Source: a phage
Sequence record: PV806337.1
Reading direction: 5' to 3' (one strand)
DNA length: 64,000 bases
The stretch's first letter is position 1. The number at the start of each line of letters is the position of its first letter. A program made the position numbers and the translations under genes. The notes under the pieces are model-generated. The model was not told the origin of the DNA, made no database searches, and worked only from the letters and a program-made list of their open reading frames with translations. Of the stretch, positions 2,352 to 61,890 are shown in pieces.

Positions 2352-3568
2352 TGGGTTTAAAAAGCTGGATTACTGAAAAGTTAAATCCGGGTCAACGTAT
2401 TATAAGAGACATGGAACCAGTTAGTCATCGCACTAACCGTAAGCCTTTTACCACTGGACAAGCCTATAGCAAGATTGAGATCCTCAATCGAACTGCCAAT
2501 ATGGTTATAGATAGTGCGGCGGAGTGTTCTTATACTGTCGGAGATAAATATAATATTGTTACGTACGCTAATGGCGTCAAAACAAAGACTCTAGACACTC
2601 TCTTAAATGTACGACCTAATCCATTCATGGATATAAGCACATTCCGTAGACTTGTAGTCACTGACCTACTTTTTGAAGGTTGTGCATACATCTATTGGGA
2701 TGGCACATCGCTTTACCATGTCCCGGCTGCTCTTATGCAGGTCGAGGCAGATGCCAATAAGTTTATCAAAAAATTTATATTTAATAACCAGATAGACTAT
2801 CGCGTAGATGAGATTATCTTTATAAAGGATAACAGTTACGTGTGTGGCACAAATTCTCAAATTTCTGGACAATCTCGTGTTGCTACTGTTATTGACTCTC
2901 TTGAGAAGCGTTCTAAAATGCTTAACTTTAAAGAGAAATTCCTCGATAACGGTACCGTGATTGGTCTTATTCTTGAGACGGATGAAATCCTGAACAAGAA
3001 ATTGCGTGAGCGTAAACAAGAAGAATTACAACTCGATTATAATCCTAGTACGGGTCAGTCTTCTGTCCTGATTCTAGATGGTGGTATGAAAGCTAAACCG
3101 TACTCCCAAATATCCTCTTTTAAAGATCTAGACTTTAAGGAAGACATCGAAGGATTTAATAAATCTATTTGTCTAGCCTTTGGAGTTCCGCAAGTACTGC
3201 TTGATGGTGGTAATAATGCGAATATTCGACCAAACATCGAATTGTTCTATTATATGACTATCATTCCTATGCTGAACAAACTGACTAGTTCTCTTACTTT
3301 CTTTTTTGGTTATAAGATTACTCCTAATACTAAGGAAGTAGCTGCATTAACACCAGATAAAGAAGCTGAGGCTAAACATTTAACCTCATTGGTTAATAAT
3401 GGTATTATGACTGGTAACGAAGCTCGTTTAGAGCTGAACCTTGAACCTTTAGATGATGAGCAGATGGATAAGATTCGTATTCCTGCTAACGTTGCTGGTT
3501 CTGCAACAGGTGTATCTGGTCAAGAAGGTGGTAGACCTCAAGGTTCCACCGAGGGAGATAAAGAATGA
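2351..3568 (+). CDS. portal protein
   Basis: 405 aa directly downstream of terminase; start overlaps upstream stop (TAATG); size and position match T5 pb7. Confidence 0.8.
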   Translation: MGLKSWITEKLNPGQRIIRDMEPVSHRTNRKPFTTGQAYSKIEILNRTANMVIDSAAECSYTVGDKYNIVTYANGVKTKTLDTLLNVRPNPFMDISTFRRLVVTDLLFEGCAYIYWDGTSLYHVPAALMQVEADANKFIKKFIFNNQIDYRVDEIIFIKDNSYVCGTNSQISGQSRVATVIDSLEKRSKMLNFKEKFLDNGTVIGLILETDEILNKKLRERKQEELQLDYNPSTGQSSVLILDGGMKAKPYSQISSFKDLDFKEDIEGFNKSICLAFGVPQVLLDGGNNANIRPNIELFYYMTIIPMLNKLTSSLTFFFGYKITPNTKEVAALTPDKEAEAKHLTSLVNNGIMTGNEARLELNLEPLDDEQMDKIRIPANVAGSATGVSGQEGGRPQGSTEGDKE

Positions 3569-44339: not shown

Positions 44340-47103
44340 CTAGTTCTGCCATTGCTTCATCATGCATATGTTTCTCCTCATCAGTCATAAACTTATATGG
44401 GATTGGCATACACTCGATTTTACAATAGGTTCTGTACCAGTCTACAATATTCTCCGTGTTCATATCCTTACCAATACCCATCATACCAAGATACATTCTT
44501 GCATATTTAGGGTTAGCACTCTGACCTGTTTTAAGGAAGAAATCTTTCTTCTTACCTTTCAGAGCTTCTATGAATGGTTTGATAGTGACGTTTGAACACT
44601 TCTTAATATCTTCCCAGAACATCTCGTGCATCTTATGGAAGAATGCAGCCCGATCATTAGGTTTATCCTTGATATATTGTTCAACATGCTCAACTGTTAC
44701 ATCTTTAATAGACTCAAGATGGTAATAGCGAACAAGAAGTAGTTTAGCTTCATACGCATCTGCATGTCGTGGAGCACAATAATCAGGAGTTGAATACAAA
44801 ATGGCTTTGATTCGCTCTTCTGTATACTCTTTACCTGCACCTTCGATAGTTCCCCAGCTTTCACTGAAAATATCAATAGTTGCACCCTGATCAAGCAAGT
44901 AATAACGTAAAGTACTAGTATAGTTCCTAGACTCCAGCTCCCTGCGACGTGCGTATAATTGCTGTGCTAACTCCAGCCAACCTTCATCAATGTTATATTG
45001 TTCAGAACCTGCGGAGAATCCACTCGTAGATTTATCAATAAAATAATAAATGTTCTGAGCACCACGGTCGCGCCTGATTGCTTGGAAACGCATGTTTGGC
45101 GCCTGGTTACTAGTTCTAGTAATAACAAATACGTTATCAAAATAGTTGAAGTCAACTCCACTCGTTACGGATGGACTACATAATAAGCAATCAATTTGTT
45201 GGTCAATTAGCTCATTAGTTGTATAATCCAGAATACGTCTAATATCCACATCAGATGTAGAGTTTGAGTGGATTTCCTTAACTAACGCACCCGTATTACG
45301 ACGCAATGCCATGCCCTTCTCATTCAGTTCATCTGGCCCACAGTCAGATACTAGGATAGATTTCTCACCCATCTCTAGAGAAGTCTGAAGTGCAACCCAA
45401 ATACTGGATTCATCAGGGAACTCATAAGCATGAGCTTTTGATAGCATTTTACGGTGATGATTATAAAATGCAACCGGTTTATCAAACTCAATCAAAGAAC
45501 CATATGCTTCAATTGTTTCTGCACTAATATCCCCATCAGATAATATAATGATTTTTGCAGTTGCAAGAATATCCCGAAGAACCTGAATACATTCACGACG
45601 TTGTTTAACAACCGGGGCGAATAATAGGTCGTTCATTACTGCATCACATTCATCGATAAAGATTGCATCAATTTGACCAATAAAACTCTTGAACTTATGC
45701 AAAGAGTGAATAGTTGTGGACATACGGTCAATAGCACCACGCTTAAAATTAAGCATATCTACAGACTTATCGTATTGTCCTGCACTAAATTTCTTAGCAT
45801 TTGAAGATACCAGTGCTCTAGTATTGGTAATTGCTAAAAAATTACCTTTAATAACTCCTGAATCTAACCAACGCACAACCGCCGTGGTTTTACCTGTGCC
45901 TAAACTCGCTTTTACAAAAGTCATATAACCTTCTGGTGGCACAGTATTTAGTTTCAAGAAATTATCAGTTTCTAGAGAATTAGTTTCTAGCTTTTTAAGT
46001 GGAATACCTTTTAAAATATCGGGTATATCGCGTTTAGAATTATTAACAAACGCTTTCAGAGCCTGCTTACGACCGTTATTAAAATAATCTTGAATATTAC
46101 GACTGTTATCTTTAGTTGCGATATATTCTGATAAGGCTGGACGGATTTCTTTTTCTAGCCATGCAAAATCAACACCATCCTCTAATGCTCTATGGTATAG
46201 TTTGGGGATAATACGCAAGTACACCCCATCCTCAGCTTCTTCTAGTTCGCTGATAGTTTCCTCTACTTTATCAGAGGCAGCTTTTTTACCTTTAATTTGA
46301 TCGAGTAAAGAGTAAAACTCCTCCTTAAACTCACCTCTAGTTGTTTCATAGTCAACCAGATTATTTGGTAAATTTACTTTAGAACCTTTAACAAATACCA
46401 GACGTGAAGCACCCTCCGCTTTAAACGGATCTACTATACCATCGGTAAATAACGGATCTGCAAAATAATGGAGCTGTACGGAAGAGTAATAAGCTAAGTC
46501 GGCAATATCAAAGCCGTACTTTTGTCTACTACTTTCATTGATAGATGTAAATAAGAATTTGATTTGACCCTGAGTTACTTTAACATTAGATTCTAGTATT
46601 AAGTGCATTCGGATACCTGGTTTTAGCCCAGCCGAAGACGATGCATGAGCGATAAACCCTGCATCAAGAGGAAACATATCCTCACTAATACTATTTAACA
46701 TCCTAATAATATGTCGAGCCATGCCAACAAGATCAAACTTGTTACAACCACCTGTATCTACAATACCATCCACGTCCATTGCAATTATATGACTTGGGTT
46801 AGATACATTAAAGTTGCCCTTCTTACGTCGCACATTATTTTTAGGTGCAAGACATCGACCTCGTACCGCAACGATATGAGGGTCAGACGTTAAACGTCTC
46901 ATAAGAGGAAGCATTTCTACTAGGGTTTGAGGATCAACTTCATCAATTACATCAAACTTGAAGGGCATTGAGGCTGGTTTACCTTCAGGATGCTTTGAGG
47001 AAAATCTTTTAGCAAAAAGATAGTCTTCTGCTTTAACTTCTCGCCAATTGCCTGTGGCTAAATCGCGATGAAATCCTGCATGACCTTGTAGGATTGAGAA
47101 CAC
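44314..47103 (-). CDS. large replication-associated P-loop NTPase (helicase-like)
   Basis: Walker A SLGTGKTT, Walker B IFIDECD; start set at GTG 47103 preceded by AGGAG; ORF-track start 47181 adds a hydrophobic junk-like N-terminus. Confidence 0.6.
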   Translation of the reverse strand: MFSILQGHAGFHRDLATGNWREVKAEDYLFAKRFSSKHPEGKPASMPFKFDVIDEVDPQTLVEMLPLMRRLTSDPHIVAVRGRCLAPKNNVRRKKGNFNVSNPSHIIAMDVDGIVDTGGCNKFDLVGMARHIIRMLNSISEDMFPLDAGFIAHASSSAGLKPGIRMHLILESNVKVTQGQIKFLFTSINESSRQKYGFDIADLAYYSSVQLHYFADPLFTDGIVDPFKAEGASRLVFVKGSKVNLPNNLVDYETTRGEFKEEFYSLLDQIKGKKAASDKVEETISELEEAEDGVYLRIIPKLYHRALEDGVDFAWLEKEIRPALSEYIATKDNSRNIQDYFNNGRKQALKAFVNNSKRDIPDILKGIPLKKLETNSLETDNFLKLNTVPPEGYMTFVKASLGTGKTTAVVRWLDSGVIKGNFLAITNTRALVSSNAKKFSAGQYDKSVDMLNFKRGAIDRMSTTIHSLHKFKSFIGQIDAIFIDECDAVMNDLLFAPVVKQRRECIQVLRDILATAKIIILSDGDISAETIEAYGSLIEFDKPVAFYNHHRKMLSKAHAYEFPDESSIWVALQTSLEMGEKSILVSDCGPDELNEKGMALRRNTGALVKEIHSNSTSDVDIRRILDYTTNELIDQQIDCLLCSPSVTSGVDFNYFDNVFVITRTSNQAPNMRFQAIRRDRGAQNIYYFIDKSTSGFSAGSEQYNIDEGWLELAQQLYARRRELESRNYTSTLRYYLLDQGATIDIFSESWGTIEGAGKEYTEERIKAILYSTPDYCAPRHADAYEAKLLLVRYYHLESIKDVTVEHVEQYIKDKPNDRAAFFHKMHEMFWEDIKKCSNVTIKPFIEALKGKKKDFFLKTGQSANPKYARMYLGMMGIGKDMNTENIVDWYRTYCKIECMPIPYKFMTDEEKHMHDEAMAELGARNDSEE

Positions 47104-47602
47104 AACAATACTCCTGTGTTGGAAATAAAATAAGTTTTCTTTAGGACTATTCAGAAAGAATAGAACAACTGTTACTGTCAATTTCTCAACAAATTAATCG
47201 CAAATACTGAAGTGGGGTGGCAACTTCCACTTTCACGCTGCGCTGCTGCTTTGCTATATCGCACAAATCCTTGAGGATGGCCGCTAAGCCAGATTTGCTC
47301 ACCTAATGCTTCATATACTAGCTCATACTAGATGCAATATAACTTACAGAATCACGTCTCGGAGTTTTTCACTCCTCCCATCTCACTTCACAACCACCTC
47401 ATACTAGGTTGCTTCGAGGCCTTACCAGGGTTCCTATGGGACGCAGATCGCTAAGTATTCTATTAACTATTTGTTTAAAAACTAACACGTAACAGTTAAA
47501 ACAACCCTTAATGGGGCAGCCTAACTGTTCCGTATCGCGGATTGTAAACAAGAAAAATTAGCAAAATCAATTTTTACTAATGTCTCTCAATTCAATATAA
47601 AT

Positions 47603-47631
47603 ATTATATCAAGATTTTGGGCATCCTGCAA
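47603..47631 (-). promoter_or_regulatory. T5-type sigma70 promoter heading a long leader
   Basis: - strand TTGCAG, 17-bp spacer, TATAAT, then ATTTATATTGAATTGAGAGAC. Confidence 0.6.
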
Positions 47632-47722
47632 GTAAAATTTTCCGGATGGTGCTATCATTGGTCTTGAGTACGGATAAAACCGAGCCAAAATGACTCGGTA
47701 ATCAGAGTTCAGCTAATAAAAA

Positions 47723-48115
47723 TCATTCATCATTTAAGCCTGGAACATAAATCCCAACACGGTTTAATTGTTCTTTAGCTTCTTTGAGAATATCTGGAGT
47801 GTACTCCCAAATATCATCTTCCACCTGTAAAAGATGGGGCGAACAACCATCATCCGACACACGACATATGGCCAAACCACGTGGGTGGAACAAAGAGAAA
47901 TTTAGGGCAACAATTAAACCCATAGCAGACAACTCATTCCAATCCAACTCCCATTCCCCCGCGTAGCCGGATAGGAAAACACCAACACAGGGATCATCTA
48001 TTTGCTGCTCCGGAAAAGTGAAGGAGGCTTGTCTTACCCCCAACCAACGTTGTAGCAGCTTCTCCGCACGTTTCACCAAACTAGGATCAATCTGACGCCA
48101 ATATACTTGTTCCAT
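47723..48115 (-). CDS. hypothetical protein (paralog of adjacent ORF)
   Basis: 130 aa; AAGGAGG RBS; shares PC(I/V)G…W.EL…MGL(I/V).ALN…LF.P and C-terminal G(Y/I)..PGL with the ORF at 48125-48553. Confidence 0.55.
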   Translation of the reverse strand: MEQVYWRQIDPSLVKRAEKLLQRWLGVRQASFTFPEQQIDDPCVGVFLSGYAGEWELDWNELSAMGLIVALNFSLFHPRGLAICRVSDDGCSPHLLQVEDDIWEYTPDILKEAKEQLNRVGIYVPGLNDE

Positions 48116-48124
48116 TCTGCCTCC

Positions 48125-48553
48125 TTAAGCAGTTAAACCTGGGATCATATACCCGAAACGTCGAAGTTTCTGAATCCCCTCATTTACTTCTTCCGGTGAG
48201 TAAGACCAACCATAACGTTCATTAACCTGAAAACCAGGAGATTCACTAGTTTTATAGTTAACAACAAGGCGATGCTTAGCAGGCATAAACAGCTTATAAT
48301 TTAACGCAAAAACTAAGCCCATTTCGTCTAACTCTTTCCAGCCCACAATCTCTTCAAGACCATCCTCTACCTGCACAATTAAACCAATACAGGGGGCCTC
48401 ATCAATATCATCTTTAAAAGCAAAGGAGATTTCGTTATTCTCACACCATATTTTCAAGGAGTTAATAGCCTCATTATACAGGCTAGCCGGTAGAGTACGC
48501 CAAAAGTTAACCAAAATTGGGTTAGCTTCTTTAGAGAATACATTATTGAACAT
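48125..48553 (-). CDS. hypothetical protein (paralog of adjacent ORF)
   Basis: 142 aa; same motif architecture as 47723-48115. Confidence 0.55.
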   Translation of the reverse strand: MFNNVFSKEANPILVNFWRTLPASLYNEAINSLKIWCENNEISFAFKDDIDEAPCIGLIVQVEDGLEEIVGWKELDEMGLVFALNYKLFMPAKHRLVVNYKTSESPGFQVNERYGWSYSPEEVNEGIQKLRRFGYMIPGLTA

Positions 48554-48555
48554 AT

Positions 48556-49062
48556 TTACACCTTAAATTGTTGTAGGGCTTTACACATTTCAAGATCTGG
48601 ACTAAATTCTAGCATATAGCTAACAGCCATTAAATCTTGAAGATTTATTCCAGTTCTACCGTTGACTATAACCGTTGGATACTGGTACATCATAGCACCA
48701 GCGTCATCCAGAACACACCAATGTTTGAGCTTATGCTTTTCAACGAAGCGAAGAACAGAATTACCCCTAGATAATCCACCCCCAGTAAAATCCGTTGTAC
48801 CAAGAAAACGATCGATAAGACCTAATCCGGTCATAATCTGAACGTTCTCCATCTCATTCCTGACAGAGAACCATGAGGATACTCCAACAATCATTATCGG
48901 AGAAGGACGAATAAAGTCCTGAAAAGCCTTGAGAAGCGGTTTGAAAACCCAATCACTTCCAAAGAAAATCTTTTCGTCATCAGGTGCATGATGGTGGGAG
49001 ATGCTCGAATTGAGCACCCCATCAATATCTAGAAAAATAATTGGAGTATTACTTATTTCCAT
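48556..49062 (-). CDS. HAD-superfamily phosphatase-like protein
   Basis: 168 aa; N-terminal FLDIDGVLN (DxDxV motif I) and later WCVLDD acidic motif. Confidence 0.5.
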   Translation of the reverse strand: MEISNTPIIFLDIDGVLNSSISHHHAPDDEKIFFGSDWVFKPLLKAFQDFIRPSPIMIVGVSSWFSVRNEMENVQIMTGLGLIDRFLGTTDFTGGGLSRGNSVLRFVEKHKLKHWCVLDDAGAMMYQYPTVIVNGRTGINLQDLMAVSYMLEFSPDLEMCKALQQFKV

Positions 49063-49258
49063 TTTTGTTCCTTTCTAAGAACCTATCATACTCAACCGTA
49101 TCAACATATATAACACCATAGTCATCGGATTTATAGTCCATCTCCCACAGCTCACAGCGATAGCACCAACTACCATCCGCCCATACAAATATATCATCGG
49201 GGTGTGTATACACAGATTTAACTATGGACATACCTGTTTCCCTTGCTTCTCGACACAT
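49049..49258 (-). CDS. hypothetical protein
   Basis: 69-aa ORF (possibly 60 aa from internal Met). Confidence 0.35.
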   Translation of the reverse strand: MCREARETGMSIVKSVYTHPDDIFVWADGSWCYRCELWEMDYKSDDYGVIYVDTVEYDRFLERNKNGNK

Positions 49259-50054
49259 AAGGTCTACCCTCTAAATGAGCTTCTACACGAGCAATAAAAT
49301 CAGGATCACTAAAAGCATCTACCGCACCTTTACTCCAGTAAGGGACACCACGTTCTTCCAGCTGGTACATCTCACTACGAGTCATACCTTGATAGCCCGG
49401 TTCCGCCGCGAGGGCACTATCATAGTAGTTAACTACCATAAATTTCGCAGCAGTCCTATTAAGAACAGGAAATAATTCCCAGTAGAAGTTAATTACTTGG
49501 TTAGAGCAACCAACCACAATGATCATATCTTGACTGGTAATACCATCAAAAACATTATACATTTCTGCGTATGCAGGAGCATGCTCTCCAAAGAAGATTA
49601 CATTAGGTTTAACCCATTTATAATCATCTGGATCAATAGAATTGTATCCTACATCAATAATCCGTTTATTGCTACTATTGTAGCTATCAGCTACAACAAC
49701 CTCTTTTAAATATCCGTGAATATGCAGAATGTCACTATGTGGAACGCCAGCACGCTCAATAAGGTCATCAACGTTGGTAGTCAAGTTTACTACTTGACCT
49801 GGATATTGTTTATACCATTCACCAATACGCAAATGCGCAAGATTGGGTTCAACAGTTTTTAGCTCTTCACGACGCTTGTTGTAAAACATATGGGTTTTAT
49901 GATAAAAATTACCACGAAAGGCATGAATATTACATACTTCTTCTAGATCATAGTCATCCCACAATGCTTTACCACTAGCAGTATCAGTACGGAAGGCTCG
50001 TACACCACTTTCAACACTCAAACCCGCACCACTAATAATAATTAATCTACGCAT
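49218..50054 (-). CDS. Sir2-family NAD-binding protein (no zinc-ribbon cysteines)
   Basis: 278 aa; ISGAGLSVESGVRAFR (GAGxS…SG…FR), TTNVDDLIERAG, ILHIHGY (HG), FFGE, IVVGCSNQV (VVGTSxxV-like); lacks the CxxC…CxxC zinc module. Confidence 0.65.
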   Translation of the reverse strand: MRRLIIISGAGLSVESGVRAFRTDTASGKALWDDYDLEEVCNIHAFRGNFYHKTHMFYNKRREELKTVEPNLAHLRIGEWYKQYPGQVVNLTTNVDDLIERAGVPHSDILHIHGYLKEVVVADSYNSSNKRIIDVGYNSIDPDDYKWVKPNVIFFGEHAPAYAEMYNVFDGITSQDMIIVVGCSNQVINFYWELFPVLNRTAAKFMVVNYYDSALAAEPGYQGMTRSEMYQLEERGVPYWSKGAVDAFSDPDFIARVEAHLEGRPYVSRSKGNRYVHS

Positions 50055-50268
50055 TTTTCACCTGTTCTCTGAAGTTTTGCCCAATACTGTCTAATAGCTC
50101 AGCTAATTCTTTATTGCCTTTCTCCATTAAGGTATTAGCAATAACTTCTAGCATAGTAGCGCAGGATTCAACACCATCCTTATAGCCAGTTTCCCACTGC
50201 TGCATTAATGCATTTTCCAAAGCGGAGTTTAAACCCTTATCTGGTAGCATCGGCTTCGAGAATGCCAT
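50047..50268 (-). CDS. hypothetical protein
   Basis: 73-aa ORF. Confidence 0.4.
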   Translation of the reverse strand: MAFSKPMLPDKGLNSALENALMQQWETGYKDGVESCATMLEVIANTLMEKGNKELAELLDSIGQNFREQVKNA

Positions 50269-50461
50269 AAAGTTTCTCCTCTAGTTCCATAACACGATTT
50301 TCATAAGAGGCACGCAACTTTTCAATTGCCAGTGCACGCACTGTAACCTCATTAGAGTTAATAGCTAATTGGGCCAGATCTTCTGTTTCCATACGTCCGT
50401 TGTAAATTAATCGATATTTAAGGTGTTTCACATTCTTAGTCATTATTAAACTCCACTGCAA
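50237..50461 (-). CDS. hypothetical protein
   Basis: 74-aa ORF; true start uncertain. Confidence 0.35.
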   Translation of the reverse strand: MQWSLIMTKNVKHLKYRLIYNGRMETEDLAQLAINSNEVTVRALAIEKLRASYENRVMELEEKLYGILEADATR

Positions 50462-50816
50462 CTGTTTCTAGGTCTTCGTCAGAAAAACTAGAGTATACAT
50501 CTTTAAGATACTGTTTAATACTCCAAGTAATATCTTCGTACCCATTGGGGCTACGTTGGTATACTTTTAACACTCTATTATACACAAATTCAAGATTACA
50601 TTTTACTTCATCTCTGTCTTCATCAAACAAGCAATATGGGTTATAAGGCGATACATCTAGATTTGTTCCCACCCAATCGCCAATAATGGTAGGGTATCCA
50701 ACACCCTCTATATGCGAGTAATCACCTGTGGCAGCAAAGACAGCCTCAGCAATATCATCTACACCCAGATGGAAACTACCACATGTAGATTCAACTATAT
50801 AGGGCTTTAATTCCAT
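50436..50816 (-). CDS. hypothetical acidic protein
   Basis: 126-aa ORF directly downstream of a consensus promoter and GAGAGGAGAA RBS. Confidence 0.5.
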   Translation of the reverse strand: MELKPYIVESTCGSFHLGVDDIAEAVFAATGDYSHIEGVGYPTIIGDWVGTNLDVSPYNPYCLFDEDRDEVKCNLEFVYNRVLKVYQRSPNGYEDITWSIKQYLKDVYSSFSDEDLETVAVEFNND

Positions 50817-50844
50817 ATCTTTCTCCTCTCAAATTTATAAATCT

Positions 50845-50873
50845 ATTATATATAAATTTTTGGCTGAAAGCAA
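50845..50873 (-). promoter_or_regulatory. T5-type sigma70 promoter
   Basis: - strand TTGCTT, 17-bp spacer, TATAAT, then AGATTTATAAATTTGAGAGGAGAA. Confidence 0.75.
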
Positions 50874-50879
50874 ATAAAA

Positions 50880-50910
50880 TAAAAGCCAGGTCGACTAGCA
50901 ACCCGGCTGA
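50880..50910 (-). terminator. rho-independent terminator after nrdD (- strand)
   Basis: - strand GCCGGGTTGCTAGTCGACCTGGC hairpin followed by TTTTATTTTATTT. Confidence 0.55.
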
Positions 50911-61012: not shown

Positions 61013-61291
61013 ATGAGAATTTATAACTCAAATTCATTAGGATTTAAACCGTTGAGAAAACGTGCACAATCACCTCGTCAAATAAGAAAGGCTAATATTG
61101 GTGAGCCAGAAACACGTCTTCCACCTCCTCCGGAACAACGTTTAGTTTATCTGGATGAAGAATTAGCTGAACGCGAAAGAAAAGCTCAAGAAGAGATTGA
61201 GCGTAAGAAAATGTGTACTGCTCCAGCATATAATAAAGGAGCGTATCAATATGTTTCCGATGCAGAACAAGCCAAGATGGTTGGTAGATAA
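61013..61291 (+). CDS. hypothetical basic protein
   Basis: 92 aa; GAGGAGGG RBS; PPPP segment and charged helix. Confidence 0.5.
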   Translation: MRIYNSNSLGFKPLRKRAQSPRQIRKANIGEPETRLPPPPEQRLVYLDEELAERERKAQEEIERKKMCTAPAYNKGAYQYVSDAEQAKMVGR

Positions 61292-61307
61292 TTTTTAAAA
61301 AATTCAT

Positions 61308-61336
61308 TTGCTAAACGCTTCAAATTCTCGTATAAT
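61308..61336 (+). promoter_or_regulatory. T5-type sigma70 promoter
   Basis: TTGCTA, 17-bp spacer, TATAAT. Confidence 0.75.
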
Positions 61337-61374
61337 ATACTTCATAAATTGATAAACAAAAAGGAAAATAAATA

Positions 61375-61890
61375 ATGGCTAAGCAGAAAAACGCAAAAAC
61401 TCAAGCAGCCCCGGCAGTTAAAACTTTCCCTCAGACTGAGGCTAACCGCAAAGCTCGTCTGGAACGCCACCTGCGCAAGCACCCTACTGATGCTCAAGCT
61501 GCACAGGCACTGAATCGTCCGGCTCCGATTCGTCAAAAGCCGAAGGCTAAGAATACCACTCGTTCTGTAGTCCGCCTTGTGACCTATGTACAGGGTTATG
61601 GTCACAAATCTGTTCCAGTAGCACTGAGTTTCAATGCTGGAGCAGAATTGTTCCCTCGTAATGGCATGGCCATGAAAGATTACGAGAAAGCAGTTAACCA
61701 GAAACGCAAACCAACGGCAGATGTATTGCGTGATACTCGTGGACAGTTTGGTTCTGTTAAGCCAAATATCTTCGGTGTAGAGTATAGCAAAGATAATGTT
61801 CGTGCTCTATGTTACGGTGTAGGCATTAAGTTCACGGGTGATTCTGCTCGTAAATCTGCTAAACCAGCTCGTAAACGTAAAGCGAAGTAA
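61375..61890 (+). CDS. hypothetical highly basic protein (probably abundant)
   Basis: 171 aa; Lys/Arg-rich termini; strongly optimal codon usage (ctg, cgt, ccg); AAGGAAAA RBS. Confidence 0.6.
   Translation: MAKQKNAKTQAAPAVKTFPQTEANRKARLERHLRKHPTDAQAAQALNRPAPIRQKPKAKNTTRSVVRLVTYVQGYGHKSVPVALSFNAGAELFPRNGMAMKDYEKAVNQKRKPTADVLRDTRGQFGSVKPNIFGVEYSKDNVRALCYGVGIKFTGDSARKSAKPARKRKAK

What the first reader, a model, noticed from the sequence alone, without database searches (positions are those of the whole stretch)
47723..50816. Accessory island with Sir2-like, HAD-like, a tandem paralog pair and small ORFs between the replication genes and nrdD
Eight co-oriented ORFs sit downstream of one consensus promoter (50845-50873). 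They include a Sir2-family protein with the NAD-pocket motifs but without the zinc-ribbon cysteines, a HAD-type phosphatase-like protein (FLDIDGVLN), two adjacent paralogous small proteins (130 and 142 aa), and four ORFs of 69-126 aa with no recognisable motifs. A phage-borne NAD-utilising Sir2 next to a phosphatase, in a phage that also depends on NAD for its ligase, could be an NAD or ADP-ribose metabolising host-takeover or counter-defence module. That function is my inference; the sequence shows only the motifs.
Basis: partly seen in the sequence, partly recalled or inferred. Interest (0 to 1): 0.65.

Follow-up and report, generated by a model that had tools for sequence, protein, structure and literature searches.

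The report
T5 sirtuin–phosphatase early operon
This is the conserved early operon T5.100–T5.107 of T5-like phages (a zinc-less sirtuin, a small HAD phosphatase, two DUF7415 proteins and small ORFs); it is already annotated, and its published prediction of NAD-dependent RNA repair has never been tested.

Summary
Eight tightly packed minus-strand ORFs lie between a T5 PN25-type early promoter (50873-50845) and a terminator hairpin (47699-47679).

It is not a strain-specific island. It is the T5.100–T5.107 operon, found at the same place (nrdD to origin-binding protein) in T5 and hundreds of T5-like phages. Only the 126-aa, 73-aa and 60-aa ORFs come and go.

- **Sirtuin:** it belongs to a phage-specific clade derived from class III (CobB-like) sirtuins. 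It keeps all NAD-cleaving residues and the Y-x-x-R pair and has lost the four-cysteine zinc ribbon.
- **HAD:** it is catalytically complete, cap-less, and falls in Pfam HAD_SAK_2.
- **Paralogs:** both are double DUF7415 proteins with no known fold relative.

Iyer et al. 2022 already described this sirtuin–HAD neighbourhood, using T5-like phage SP15, and predicted Tpt1/KptA-like removal of RNA 2'-phosphate. I re-derived the supporting context. Orthologous sirtuins sit inside RNA ligase–cREC–kinase–phosphoesterase operons. HAD and DUF7415 flank rnlA in an Aeromonas T4-like phage.

T5-likes encode no RNA ligase or kinase, HAD relatives also sit beside NARP1-type genes, and no experiment exists. 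RNA end-healing is the best guess (about 0.4). Protein deacylation and NAD/ADPR metabolism remain open.

The parts
50884..50908 (-). Intrinsic terminator of the upstream nrdD gene; upper boundary of the unit
   Evidence: 10-bp GC-rich hairpin followed by a T-run. dG -15.4 kcal/mol, z -3.78. T5 annotates a terminator at the homologous place.
50845..50873 (-). T5 early-type sigma-70 promoter: TTGCTT, 17-nt spacer, TATAAT
   Evidence: Sequence read. It aligns with T5's annotated promoter upstream of T5.100 and with P-N25. It was not listed by the consensus scan because the -35 matches at only 3 of 6 positions.
50436..50816 (-). ORF1, 126 aa, T5.100 homolog, function unknown; the variable member of the operon
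   Evidence: phrog_11748, 1e-73. No Pfam, NCBIfam or PADLOC hit. Present in 8 of 28 T5-like loci.
50237..50443 (-). ORF2, 68 aa (the ORF finder gives 74 aa from a TTG at 50461), T5.101 homolog, function unknown
   Evidence: phrog_5236, 1e-45, covering residues 8-74. EC148 annotates a 207-nt gene here. Present in 27 of 28 loci.
50047..50268 (-). ORF3, 73 aa, function unknown; absent from T5 itself
   Evidence: phrog_5827, 4e-31. Annotated in phage Lindwurm. T5 has no gene here. Present in 22 of 28 loci.
49218..50054 (-). ORF4, 278 aa: phage-clade sirtuin (T5.102 homolog), derived from class III sirtuins, without the zinc ribbon
   Evidence: Pfam SIR2, 88 bits. Closest solved relative CobB 1S5P, 2e-17. 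Below all NCBIfam CobB cut-offs. No PADLOC hit. In 121 clade members, GAGxS, FR, N94/D96 and H112-G113 are at least 98% conserved, Y58-x-x-R61 is present in 121/121, and there are 0-2 Cys between HG and FGE in the 83 members where those anchors were found.
49049..49231 (-). ORF5, 60 aa (the ORF finder gives 69 aa from 49258), T5.104 homolog; overlaps the sirtuin stop and the HAD start by 14 nt each
   Evidence: phrog_5116, 2e-29. The best match in T5 is at L001 7408 (4e-41), inside annotated T5.104. A homolog follows the sirtuin in Sugarlandvirus phiKp_27. Present in 23 of 28 T5-like loci and missing in Lindwurm-type phages.
48556..49062 (-). ORF6, 168 aa: cap-less HAD phosphatase of the HAD_SAK_2 family (T5.105 homolog; often mis-annotated 'Sir2')
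48125..48553 (-). ORF7, 142 aa: double-DUF7415 protein (T5.106 homolog)
   Evidence: Pfam DUF7415, 121 bits, two stretches. Paralog of ORF8.
47723..48115 (-). ORF8, 130 aa: double-DUF7415 protein (T5.107 homolog)
47675..47699 (-). Terminator-like hairpin that closes the operon
   Evidence: 9-bp stem, dG -13.2 kcal/mol, z -3.96. Followed by UUUUAU. T5 annotates a terminator just after T5.107.

Best explanation
**Shown.** The region is the early operon T5.100–T5.107 of a Tequintavirus. A strong PN25-type promoter transcribes it right after the second-step DNA transfer genes become available. Its conserved enzymes are two. One is a sirtuin that has everything needed to cleave nicotinamide from NAD+ and transfer ADP-ribose to an anionic or acyl nucleophile. 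It has lost the zinc ribbon and belongs to a clade found only in phages. The other is a small cap-less HAD phosphatase with a complete active site.

**Inferred: the most likely function is NAD+-dependent healing of broken RNA, probably tRNA.**
1. The sirtuin acts like Tpt1/KptA. It attaches ADP-ribose to a 2'-phosphate left at an RNA end or junction after cleavage by a metal-independent nuclease. This releases nicotinamide and removes the phosphate as ADP-ribose cyclic phosphate.
2. The HAD phosphatase either strips the remaining terminal 2'/3'-phosphate or dephosphorylates the ADP-ribose-phosphate by-product.
3. Sealing would have to be done by a host ligase, because T5-likes encode no RNA ligase.

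The benefit to the phage would be protection of its own and the host's tRNAs against anticodon-nuclease-type defences.

**Other genes.** The two DUF7415 proteins and the small ORFs are probably not obligatory parts of this chemistry. DUF7415 is a promiscuous phage domain that travels with replication and nucleotide-metabolism genes.
For: **Identity of the operon**
-.

**Active enzymes**
- Sirtuin catalytic and NAD motifs, plus an invariant Y-x-x-R pair (121/121) that binds an anionic group in class III sirtuins.
- HAD motifs I-IV are invariant and the HAD fold is confirmed.

**Gene-neighbourhood evidence, re-derived here**
- The sirtuin ortholog in rV5-like Bas53 (57% identity) lies in RNA ligase – cREC – sirtuin. 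A P-loop kinase and a calcineurin-like phosphoesterase sit divergently next to it, and a tRNA cluster is 5 kb away.
- Eight ~146-kb phage loci have phosphoesterase–Rnl–cREC–kinase–Sir2 in one direction; three more have the Rnl, kinase and phosphoesterase genes next to the sirtuin without a detected cREC.
- Of 31 sirtuin loci outside the T5 subfamily, 12 have an RNA ligase and 12 a kinase within 7 kb.
- HAD and the sirtuin stay linked even when their order is swapped, in a 71-kb contig: nrdD–HAD–81 aa–SIR2.
- In Aeromonas T4-like phage PX29, HAD_SAK_2 and a single-domain DUF7415 flank rnlA with no sirtuin nearby.
- Distant HAD relatives lie within 3 kb of Rnl + kinase + phosphoesterase in loci L032, L039 and L040.

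**Other support**
- The nearest structural relatives of the HAD are cap-less HADs that act on macromolecules: MDP-1, Scp1, UBLCP1.
- The same proposal was published for exactly this neighbourhood, typified by T5-like phage SP15 (PMC9503650). SP15 matches the window region at 94.7% DNA identity.
- DT57C and SHSML-45 lose the sirtuin and the HAD together and stay viable, as expected of a conditional counter-defence function.
Against: - No experiment on any phage sirtuin was found.
- To my knowledge no sirtuin has been shown to use an RNA phosphate as nucleophile.
- T5 and this phage have no detectable RNA ligase, polynucleotide kinase or cREC (annotation; phmmer). The pathway is therefore incomplete without a host ligase.
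- 18 of the 31 non-T5 sirtuin loci have no RNA-repair gene within 7 kb, and their neighbours are heterogeneous.
- The sirtuin keeps every residue needed for ordinary lysine deacylation, including the desuccinylase-type Y-x-x-R.
- HAD_SAK_2 relatives also sit beside NARP1-type Prs-like + Nampt-like pairs (L036 and L049). This fits a small-molecule ADPR-phosphate substrate just as well.
- The joint loss in DT57C and SHSML-45 is a single deletion of adjacent genes, so it is weak evidence for shared function.
Confidence: 0.4

Rival explanations
1. Protein modification erasers for host takeover. The sirtuin is a conventional NAD+-dependent lysine deacylase of the CobB/SIRT5 type, preferring negatively charged acyl groups such as succinyl or malonyl. 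The cap-less HAD is a protein phosphatase. Made early in infection, they would reset host or phage protein acylation and phosphorylation.
For: - The best sequence relatives are E. coli CobB and SIRT5.
- NCBIfam's best models are protein deacylases.
- Catalytic His, N/D, FGE and the class III Y-x-x-R pair are all conserved.
- The HAD's closest structures are protein-directed cap-less HADs: MDP-1, Scp1 CTD phosphatase, UBLCP1.
Against: - The clade is phage-specific, lacks the zinc ribbon that shapes the peptide cleft in canonical sirtuins, and scores far below every CobB equivalog cut-off.
- Its recurrent partners are RNA-repair genes, not protein-modifying enzymes.
- The HAD belongs to a Pfam family defined on RNA-repair proteins.
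Confidence: 0.25
2. NAD/ADP-ribose metabolite module. The sirtuin cleaves or transfers from NAD+ or an NAD-derived immune signal. The HAD dephosphorylates an ADP-ribose phosphate such as ADPR-1''-phosphate or ADPR cyclic-phosphate products. This would feed NAD+ reconstitution or destroy a toxic or signalling metabolite, countering NAD-targeting defences.
For: - A HAD_SAK_2 relative lies two genes upstream of a Prs-like + Nampt-like pair, which is the NARP1 architecture (architecture from bioRxiv 10.1101/2024.02.11.579819).
- 10 of 31 non-T5 sirtuin loci have a NAPRTase-family gene within 7 kb, usually with the Prs-like gene.
- There is a precedent for a phage phosphatase that converts ADPR-1P to ADPR to rescue NARP1 (bioRxiv 10.64898/2026.01.28.702374).
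- The phage needs NAD+ for its own ligase.
Against: - The known ADPR-1P phosphatase is a Macro-domain protein, not a HAD.
- T5-like genomes examined here carry no NARP1-type pair.
- An NAD-consuming enzyme would work against a phage that depends on NAD+.
- Cap-less HADs usually take macromolecular rather than small-molecule substrates (general HAD knowledge; nearest structures).
- The sirtuin has no PADLOC or defence-type SIR2 similarity.
Confidence: 0.2
3. No joint function. The eight genes are simply neighbouring early genes that share a promoter. The sirtuin/HAD pair, the DUF7415 pair and the small ORFs each do something unrelated. For example, DUF7415 might act with the adjacent replication genes.
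For: - 71 single-domain DUF7415 loci from other phages have no sirtuin, HAD or RNA ligase nearby. Their neighbours are P2 gpA replication protein, Dam methylase and NUDIX.
- DUF7415 is fused to a MazG-like dATP/dGTP pyrophosphohydrolase and to a thymidylate kinase.
- DT57C and SHSML-45 keep both DUF7415 genes while losing the sirtuin and HAD.
- ORF1 is present in only 8 of 28 loci.
Against: - Sirtuin + 60-aa ORF + 2x DUF7415 stay together across the Markadamsvirinae–Sugarlandvirus divide.
- HAD and DUF7415 are neighbours again in unrelated T4-like Aeromonas phages.
- ORFs 1-6 overlap (coordinates with the corrected starts), which suggests translational coupling.
Confidence: 0.15

Closest known systems
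Bacteriophage T5 genes T5.100–T5.107 (NC_005859, 55786-58927)
   Same: Same position (nrdD to replication origin binding protein), same order, same promoter and terminators. DNA identity to the most similar T5-like phages is 89-99.9%.
   Different: T5 lacks the 73-aa ORF3 and has two small ORFs (T5.103, T5.104) where the window has one. T5.105 (the HAD) is mis-annotated as 'Sir2' in many records.
Phage sirtuin RNA-repair neighbourhoods of Iyer, Burroughs, Anantharaman & Aravind 2022 (PMC9503650), type 3 'Escherichia phage SP15'
   Same: [quoted passage not shown] SP15 matches the window region at 94.7% identity.
   Different: The paper's text does not discuss the DUF7415 pair, the 60-aa partner ORF, the missing zinc ribbon or the Y-x-x-R pair. 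Its function is a prediction only.
E. coli CobB / human SIRT5 (class III sirtuins, NAD+-dependent deacylases)
   Same: Closest solved relatives. They share the Rossmann NAD site, catalytic His, N/D of the TQNID-type motif, FGE, and the Tyr/Arg pair that binds acidic acyl groups.
   Different: No zinc-binding cysteines. Scores are well below the curated CobB family cut-offs (100.7 vs 243; 90.4 vs 320). The clade is phage-only, with RNA-repair neighbours.
Tpt1/KptA RNA 2'-phosphotransferase
   Same: The proposed chemistry is the same: NAD+ donates ADP-ribose to an RNA 2'-phosphate, releasing nicotinamide and ADP-ribose 1'',2''-cyclic phosphate (established knowledge; proposed for phage sirtuins in PMC9503650).
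   Different: The fold is unrelated: ART superfamily versus sirtuin Rossmann fold. The resemblance is 'works like', not membership, and it is untested.
T4 Pnkp + Rnl1 tRNA repair against the PrrC anticodon nuclease
   Same: A phage early function that heals and seals cleaved tRNA. T4 Pnkp's 3'-phosphatase is also a HAD domain (established knowledge). An Rnl1-type ligase sits next to sirtuin orthologs and next to HAD/DUF7415 in other phages.
   Different: T5-likes have no ligase and no kinase. The HAD here is free-standing and belongs to a different HAD family.
NARP1-AP (Adps–Adpp–Namat) of Vibrio phage Gary
   Same: A phage phosphatase working on an NAD-derived phosphate ester, next to NAD-rebuilding genes. 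A HAD_SAK_2 relative occupies a comparable place in one 152-kb phage contig.
   Different: Adpp is a Macro-domain enzyme. The window has neither a Macro domain nor NARP1 genes.

Membership tests
Sirtuin / SIR2 family (Pfam PF02146) | Score above the Pfam gathering threshold | tested here: met
   88.2 bits against a cut-off of 24, covering profile positions 1-178 of 180.
Sirtuin / SIR2 family (Pfam PF02146) | NAD-binding and catalytic residues: GAGxS, FR, Asn/Asp of the TQNID-type motif, catalytic His-Gly | tested here: met
   SGAGLS, AFR, TTNVDD and HIHG align with CobB. They are at least 98% conserved in 121 clade members.
Sirtuin / SIR2 family (Pfam PF02146) | Four-cysteine zinc ribbon in the small domain | tested here: not met
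   The window protein has no Cys between HG and FGE. The 83 of 121 clade members in which the HxHG…F[FW]GE anchors were found have 0-2; the other 38 were not scored.
Sirtuin / SIR2 family (Pfam PF02146) | NAD+-dependent deacylase or ADP-ribosyltransferase activity | not testable with these tools
   Needs enzyme assays. No published assay was found.
Class III sirtuins (CobB / SIRT5) | Tyr-x-x-Arg pair in the acyl pocket | tested here: met
   FYNKRR aligns with CobB FYNARR. Y-x-x-R is present in 121 of 121.
Class III sirtuins (CobB / SIRT5) | Score above the NCBIfam CobB / deacylase equivalog cut-offs | tested here: not met
   Best scores are 100.7 bits against 243 and 90.4 against 320.
Defence-type SIR2 NADases (ThsA, DSR1/2, SIR2-HerA, SIR2-pAgo) | Similarity to defence SIR2 models, or a fused or adjacent sensor (SLOG, HerA, pAgo) | tested here: not met
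   No PADLOC hit for any of the eight proteins. The neighbours are HAD, DUF7415 and small ORFs.
Phage sirtuin RNA-repair neighbourhood, type 3 (PMC9503650) | Sirtuin of the phage clade encoded next to a Swiss-army-knife-type HAD phosphatase | tested here: met
   Sirtuin and HAD_SAK_2 are separated by one 60-aa ORF. Same clade as sirtuins in Rnl/kinase operons, at 54-67% identity. The prototype SP15 matches at 94.7%.
Phage sirtuin RNA-repair neighbourhood, type 3 (PMC9503650) | Removal of RNA 2'-phosphate by the sirtuin | not testable with these tools
   This is a prediction only.
HAD phosphatase superfamily / HAD_SAK_2 (PF18143) | Motifs I-IV (DxDx[TV], S/T, K/R, DD) and the Rossmannoid HAD fold | tested here: met
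HAD phosphatase superfamily / HAD_SAK_2 (PF18143) | Polynucleotide-end phosphatase activity | not testable with these tools
   No sequence relative in the PDB. The nearest structures are cap-less protein-directed HADs.
Tpt1/KptA RNA 2'-phosphotransferase | ART-superfamily Tpt1 fold and domain | tested here: not met
   None of the eight proteins hits a Tpt1/KptA family. The analogy is functional only.
NARP1-AP ADPR-1P phosphatase (Adpp) | Macro domain encoded inside an Adps–Namat operon | tested here: not met
   The phosphatase here is a HAD. No Prs-like or Nampt-like gene was found in T5 1-75 kb or in the 43-kb EC148 locus that covers window ~27,600 to its end; the rest of the window was not scanned.
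DUF7415 (PF24187) | Score above the Pfam gathering threshold | tested here: met
   120.8 and 107 bits against 27, with two stretches in each protein.

The most novel reading that the evidence does not exclude
The zinc-less, phage-only sirtuin clade is not a protein deacylase. It is a nucleic-acid-directed ADP-ribosyl/phosphate transferase, a Tpt1/KptA analogue built on a sirtuin fold. Its invariant Tyr/Arg pair would hold an RNA phosphate. In T5-like phages it would work with a cap-less HAD phosphatase as a ligase-less RNA end-healing or ADPR-phosphate-recycling counter-defence pair. DUF7415 would be a new small nucleotide- or nucleic-acid-handling domain recruited alongside.
Probability: 0.3. 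Interest if true: 0.7.

Novelty: already known. Interest (0 to 1): 0.3.

Why it matters
Sirtuin genes of this clade occur in about a thousand sequenced phages: T5-like, rV5-like, phi92-like, Sugarland-like, Vibrio and jumbo phages. None has been assayed.

If the RNA-repair prediction is right, it would be the first sirtuin acting on RNA. It would also be a new NAD-consuming arm of phage counter-defence, next to the NAD-rebuilding pathways NARP1-3.

If the sirtuin is a deacylase, it would show that phages rewrite the host acylome.

Either answer is reachable with simple assays, and the natural deletion phages DT57C and SHSML-45 are ready-made controls. For this window itself nothing new is added. 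The locus is an ordinary copy of a long-annotated T5 operon.

Tried and rejected
- **Defence-type SIR2 or any known defence protein.** No PADLOC hit for any ORF.
- **A known fold for DUF7415.**
  - BFVD returns family members only.
  - The afdb50 library was unavailable.
- **A general DUF7415–sirtuin/HAD/RNA-ligase link.**
  - This was rejected: 71 single-domain DUF7415 loci have none of these genes nearby.
  - The link holds only in Demerecviridae and Aeromonas T4-likes.
  - The search for related loci on the DUF7415 alignment failed for lack of a conserved stretch, so a degenerate DNA pattern was used instead.
- **HAD as a paralog of T5 Dmp nucleotidase.** Only motif I aligns; hhalign probability 1.4%.
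- **HAD sequence relatives in the PDB.** None, with a single sequence or with a profile.
- **Structured RNA in or around the operon.** No Rfam match at E up to 0.1.
- **Published zinc-less sirtuin.** I recalled that Sir2La lacks zinc. The preprint text does not say so, so I dropped the comparison.
- **NADAR-like COG3236 gene.** I thought the window carried the one annotated in EC148. It does not.
- **Experimental work on T5 or phage sirtuins.** Four literature searches found nothing; a fifth was unfocused and gave nothing relevant.

Full report
**What is there.** The window comes from a Tequintavirus. The 3.35-kb region is 99.9% identical to Escherichia phage EC148 and matches 448 phage records. 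On the minus strand lie eight ORFs of 126, 68, 73, 278, 60, 168, 142 and 130 aa. The starts of ORF2 and ORF5 are corrected. ORFs 1-6 overlap by 8-32 nt and ORFs 6-8 are 2-9 nt apart.

Upstream is the nrdD terminator hairpin (50908-50884). After it comes TTGCTT-17-TATAAT (50873-50845). The consensus scan missed this promoter because its -35 matches only 3 of 6 positions. It aligns almost base for base with T5's annotated promoter upstream of T5.100 and with T5 P-N25. A hairpin at 47699-47679 (dG -13.2, z -3.96) closes the unit where T5 annotates a terminator.

**Not an island.** T5 itself has T5.100–T5.107 in the same slot between nrdD and the origin-binding protein. In 28 T5-like loci retrieved by a sirtuin search, presence is as follows:
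- HAD, both DUF7415 genes, the 68-aa ORF and the sirtuin: 27-28 loci
- the 60-aa ORF: 23 loci
- the 73-aa ORF: 22 loci
- the 126-aa ORF: 8 loci

Klebsiella Sugarlandviruses share nrdD – small ORF – sirtuin – 60-aa homolog – 2x DUF7415 – origin-binding protein, but without the HAD. DT57C and SHSML-45 carry a deletion that fuses the sirtuin start to the HAD C-terminus while keeping both DUF7415 genes. The two enzymes are therefore conserved but dispensable in the laboratory.

**The sirtuin.**
- It is a true PF02146 sirtuin. It is closest to E. coli CobB and then SIRT5.
- It scores far below all curated CobB cut-offs and has no defence-type SIR2 similarity.
- In 121 clade members (54-97% identity), GAGxS, FR, Asn/Asp of TTNVDD and His-Gly are at least 98% conserved.
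- The class III Tyr-x-x-Arg pair is present in all 121.
- The segment that carries CobB's zinc cysteines has 0-2 Cys in the 83 members where the flanking HxHG and F[FW]GE anchors were found.
- Homologs occur in about 1000 phage records across T5-like, rV5-like, phi92-like, Sugarland-like, Vibrio and jumbo phages. The protein hits come from contigs of phage-like size.

**The HAD.**
- It is Pfam HAD_SAK_2 ('Swiss Army Knife RNA repair'), with invariant motifs I-IV.
- The AF2 model is confident (pLDDT 94.6). Its best structural matches are the cap-less MDP-1, Scp1 and UBLCP1.
- It has no sequence relative in the PDB and no relation to T5 Dmp beyond motif I.

**The paralogs.** The two are 32% identical. 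Each is an internal duplication of DUF7415, and only the C-terminal copy keeps the motif N…HP.GLA…G.S…DD. The AF2 model is good (pLDDT 88) but matches no known fold.

An exhaustive profile search found 164 relatives. Most are 60-200-aa single-domain proteins. A few are fused to a MazG-like dATP/dGTP pyrophosphohydrolase or to a thymidylate kinase.

71 further loci, many on contigs of 20-40 kb (at least six next to a P2-type gpA replication gene), have no sirtuin, HAD or RNA ligase nearby. Their neighbours are gpA replication protein, Dam methylase and NUDIX. DUF7415 therefore looks like a promiscuous domain linked to replication and nucleotide metabolism. It is not a dedicated partner of the sirtuin.

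**What the literature says.** Iyer, Burroughs, Anantharaman and Aravind (2022, PMC9503650) already defined a distinct phage sirtuin clade with three neighbourhood types. The third is 'typified by Escherichia phage SP15', a T5-like phage 94.7% identical here. [quoted passage not shown] They proposed that the sirtuin acts like KptA/Tpt1 on RNA 2'-phosphates. I found no experimental work on any phage sirtuin.

**Independent test of the context.**
- In rV5-like Bas53 the 57%-identical sirtuin lies in RNA ligase (RNA_lig_T4_1) – cREC – sirtuin. A P-loop kinase and a calcineurin-like phosphoesterase sit divergently alongside, and tRNA genes are 5 kb away.
- Eight ~146-kb phage loci carry phosphoesterase–Rnl–cREC–kinase–Sir2 in one direction; three more carry the same genes without a detected cREC.
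- Of 31 sirtuin loci outside the T5 subfamily, 12 have an RNA ligase and 12 a kinase within 7 kb. The rest have heterogeneous neighbours.
- HAD and the sirtuin remain linked with swapped order in a 71-kb contig.
- In Aeromonas T4-like PX29, HAD_SAK_2 and a single DUF7415 flank rnlA.

These results support the RNA-repair reading.

**Evidence against it.**
- T5-likes encode no RNA ligase, kinase or cREC.
- The sirtuin keeps all deacylase residues.
- A HAD_SAK_2 relative sits two genes from a Prs-like + Nampt-like pair of NARP1 architecture.
- 10 of 31 sirtuin loci have such NAD genes within 7 kb.
- The known NARP1-associated ADPR-1P phosphatase is a Macro domain, not a HAD.

**Verdict.** The locus is an ordinary copy of a long-annotated T5 early operon. 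Its sirtuin–HAD pairing and putative role are already in the literature. My best mechanistic guess is NAD+-dependent RNA end-healing (0.4). The alternatives are protein deacylation/dephosphorylation (0.25), NAD/ADPR-metabolite handling (0.2) and no joint function (0.15). Novelty: already known. Interest is low to moderate, because the function of a very widespread phage sirtuin remains untested and is easy to test.

Noticed in passing
window 47104-47644 (minus strand): A second T5-type promoter (TTGCAG-17-TATAAT, about 47631-47602) is followed by a non-coding leader of about 490 nt before the origin-binding protein gene starts at 47103. The stretch is conserved and unannotated across T5-like phages. 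It has no Rfam match and folds only mildly better than shuffles (z -2.64). SHSML-45 has an endonuclease gene inserted here.
   Followed up: partly
window 50817-50891 (minus strand): The operon promoter is nearly identical in its -35, -10 and downstream region to T5 P-N25. From memory, P-N25 is the strong early promoter that the 'T5 promoter' of expression vectors derives from.
   Followed up: yes
L080 (DT57C) 2854-3126; L079 (SHSML-45) 3022-3318: Two independent T5-like isolates carry an in-frame-looking deletion. It removes most of the sirtuin, the 60-aa ORF and the HAD N-terminus, and leaves a roughly 90-98-aa remnant annotated 'Sir2 (defective)'. Both DUF7415 genes are intact. These phages are natural knock-outs for functional tests.
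   Followed up: partly
L012 7001-10569 (JGI 152-kb viral contig): A HAD_SAK_2 relative lies two genes upstream of a Prs-like + NAPRTase/NAMPT-like pair, which is the NARP1 architecture. This hints at a non-Macro phosphatase attached to NAD+ reconstitution.
   Followed up: partly
L177, L179-L181, L190, L198, L202, L207 (about 146-kb phages): A NARP1-type pair (NAPRTase-like and Prs-like, minus strand) sits a few kb upstream of the Rnl–kinase–Sir2 operon (with phosphoesterase; cREC detected in five of the eight) and is divergent from it. NAD rebuilding genes and the NAD-using sirtuin are therefore neighbours.
   Followed up: partly
window 47723-48553; P0225/P0226, P0216; L083-L153: The DUF7415 core has a strongly conserved motif (N…HP.GLA…G.S…DD). 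It is fused in some proteins to a MazG-like dATP/dGTP pyrophosphohydrolase or a thymidylate kinase. In P2-like prophages it commonly follows the gpA replication gene. Function is unknown and no fold relative was found.
   Followed up: partly
window 49049-49231: The 60-aa ORF (HPDDI..W.DGSWCYR…SDDY) overlaps both the sirtuin stop and the HAD start by 14 nt. It also follows the sirtuin in Sugarlandviruses, so it may be a small sirtuin partner. It has no family annotation beyond PHROGs of unknown function.
   Followed up: partly
window 61291-61375 versus L006 33024-33473 (EC148): EC148 has a 450-nt gene annotated 'COG3236 / GTP cyclohydrolase II' between two genes that are adjacent in the window. 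From memory, COG3236 is a NADAR-type domain. The window phage lacks this gene, so it is not EC148 itself. The window also has about 670 extra bases relative to EC148 somewhere between 50950 and 60459.
   Followed up: no
many GenBank records (e.g. T5.105): The HAD gene is widely mis-annotated as 'Sir2 (NAD-dependent deacetylase)', and phrog_18062 carries that label. The likely cause is annotation transfer from fused or truncated entries such as the DT57C remnant.
   Followed up: partly
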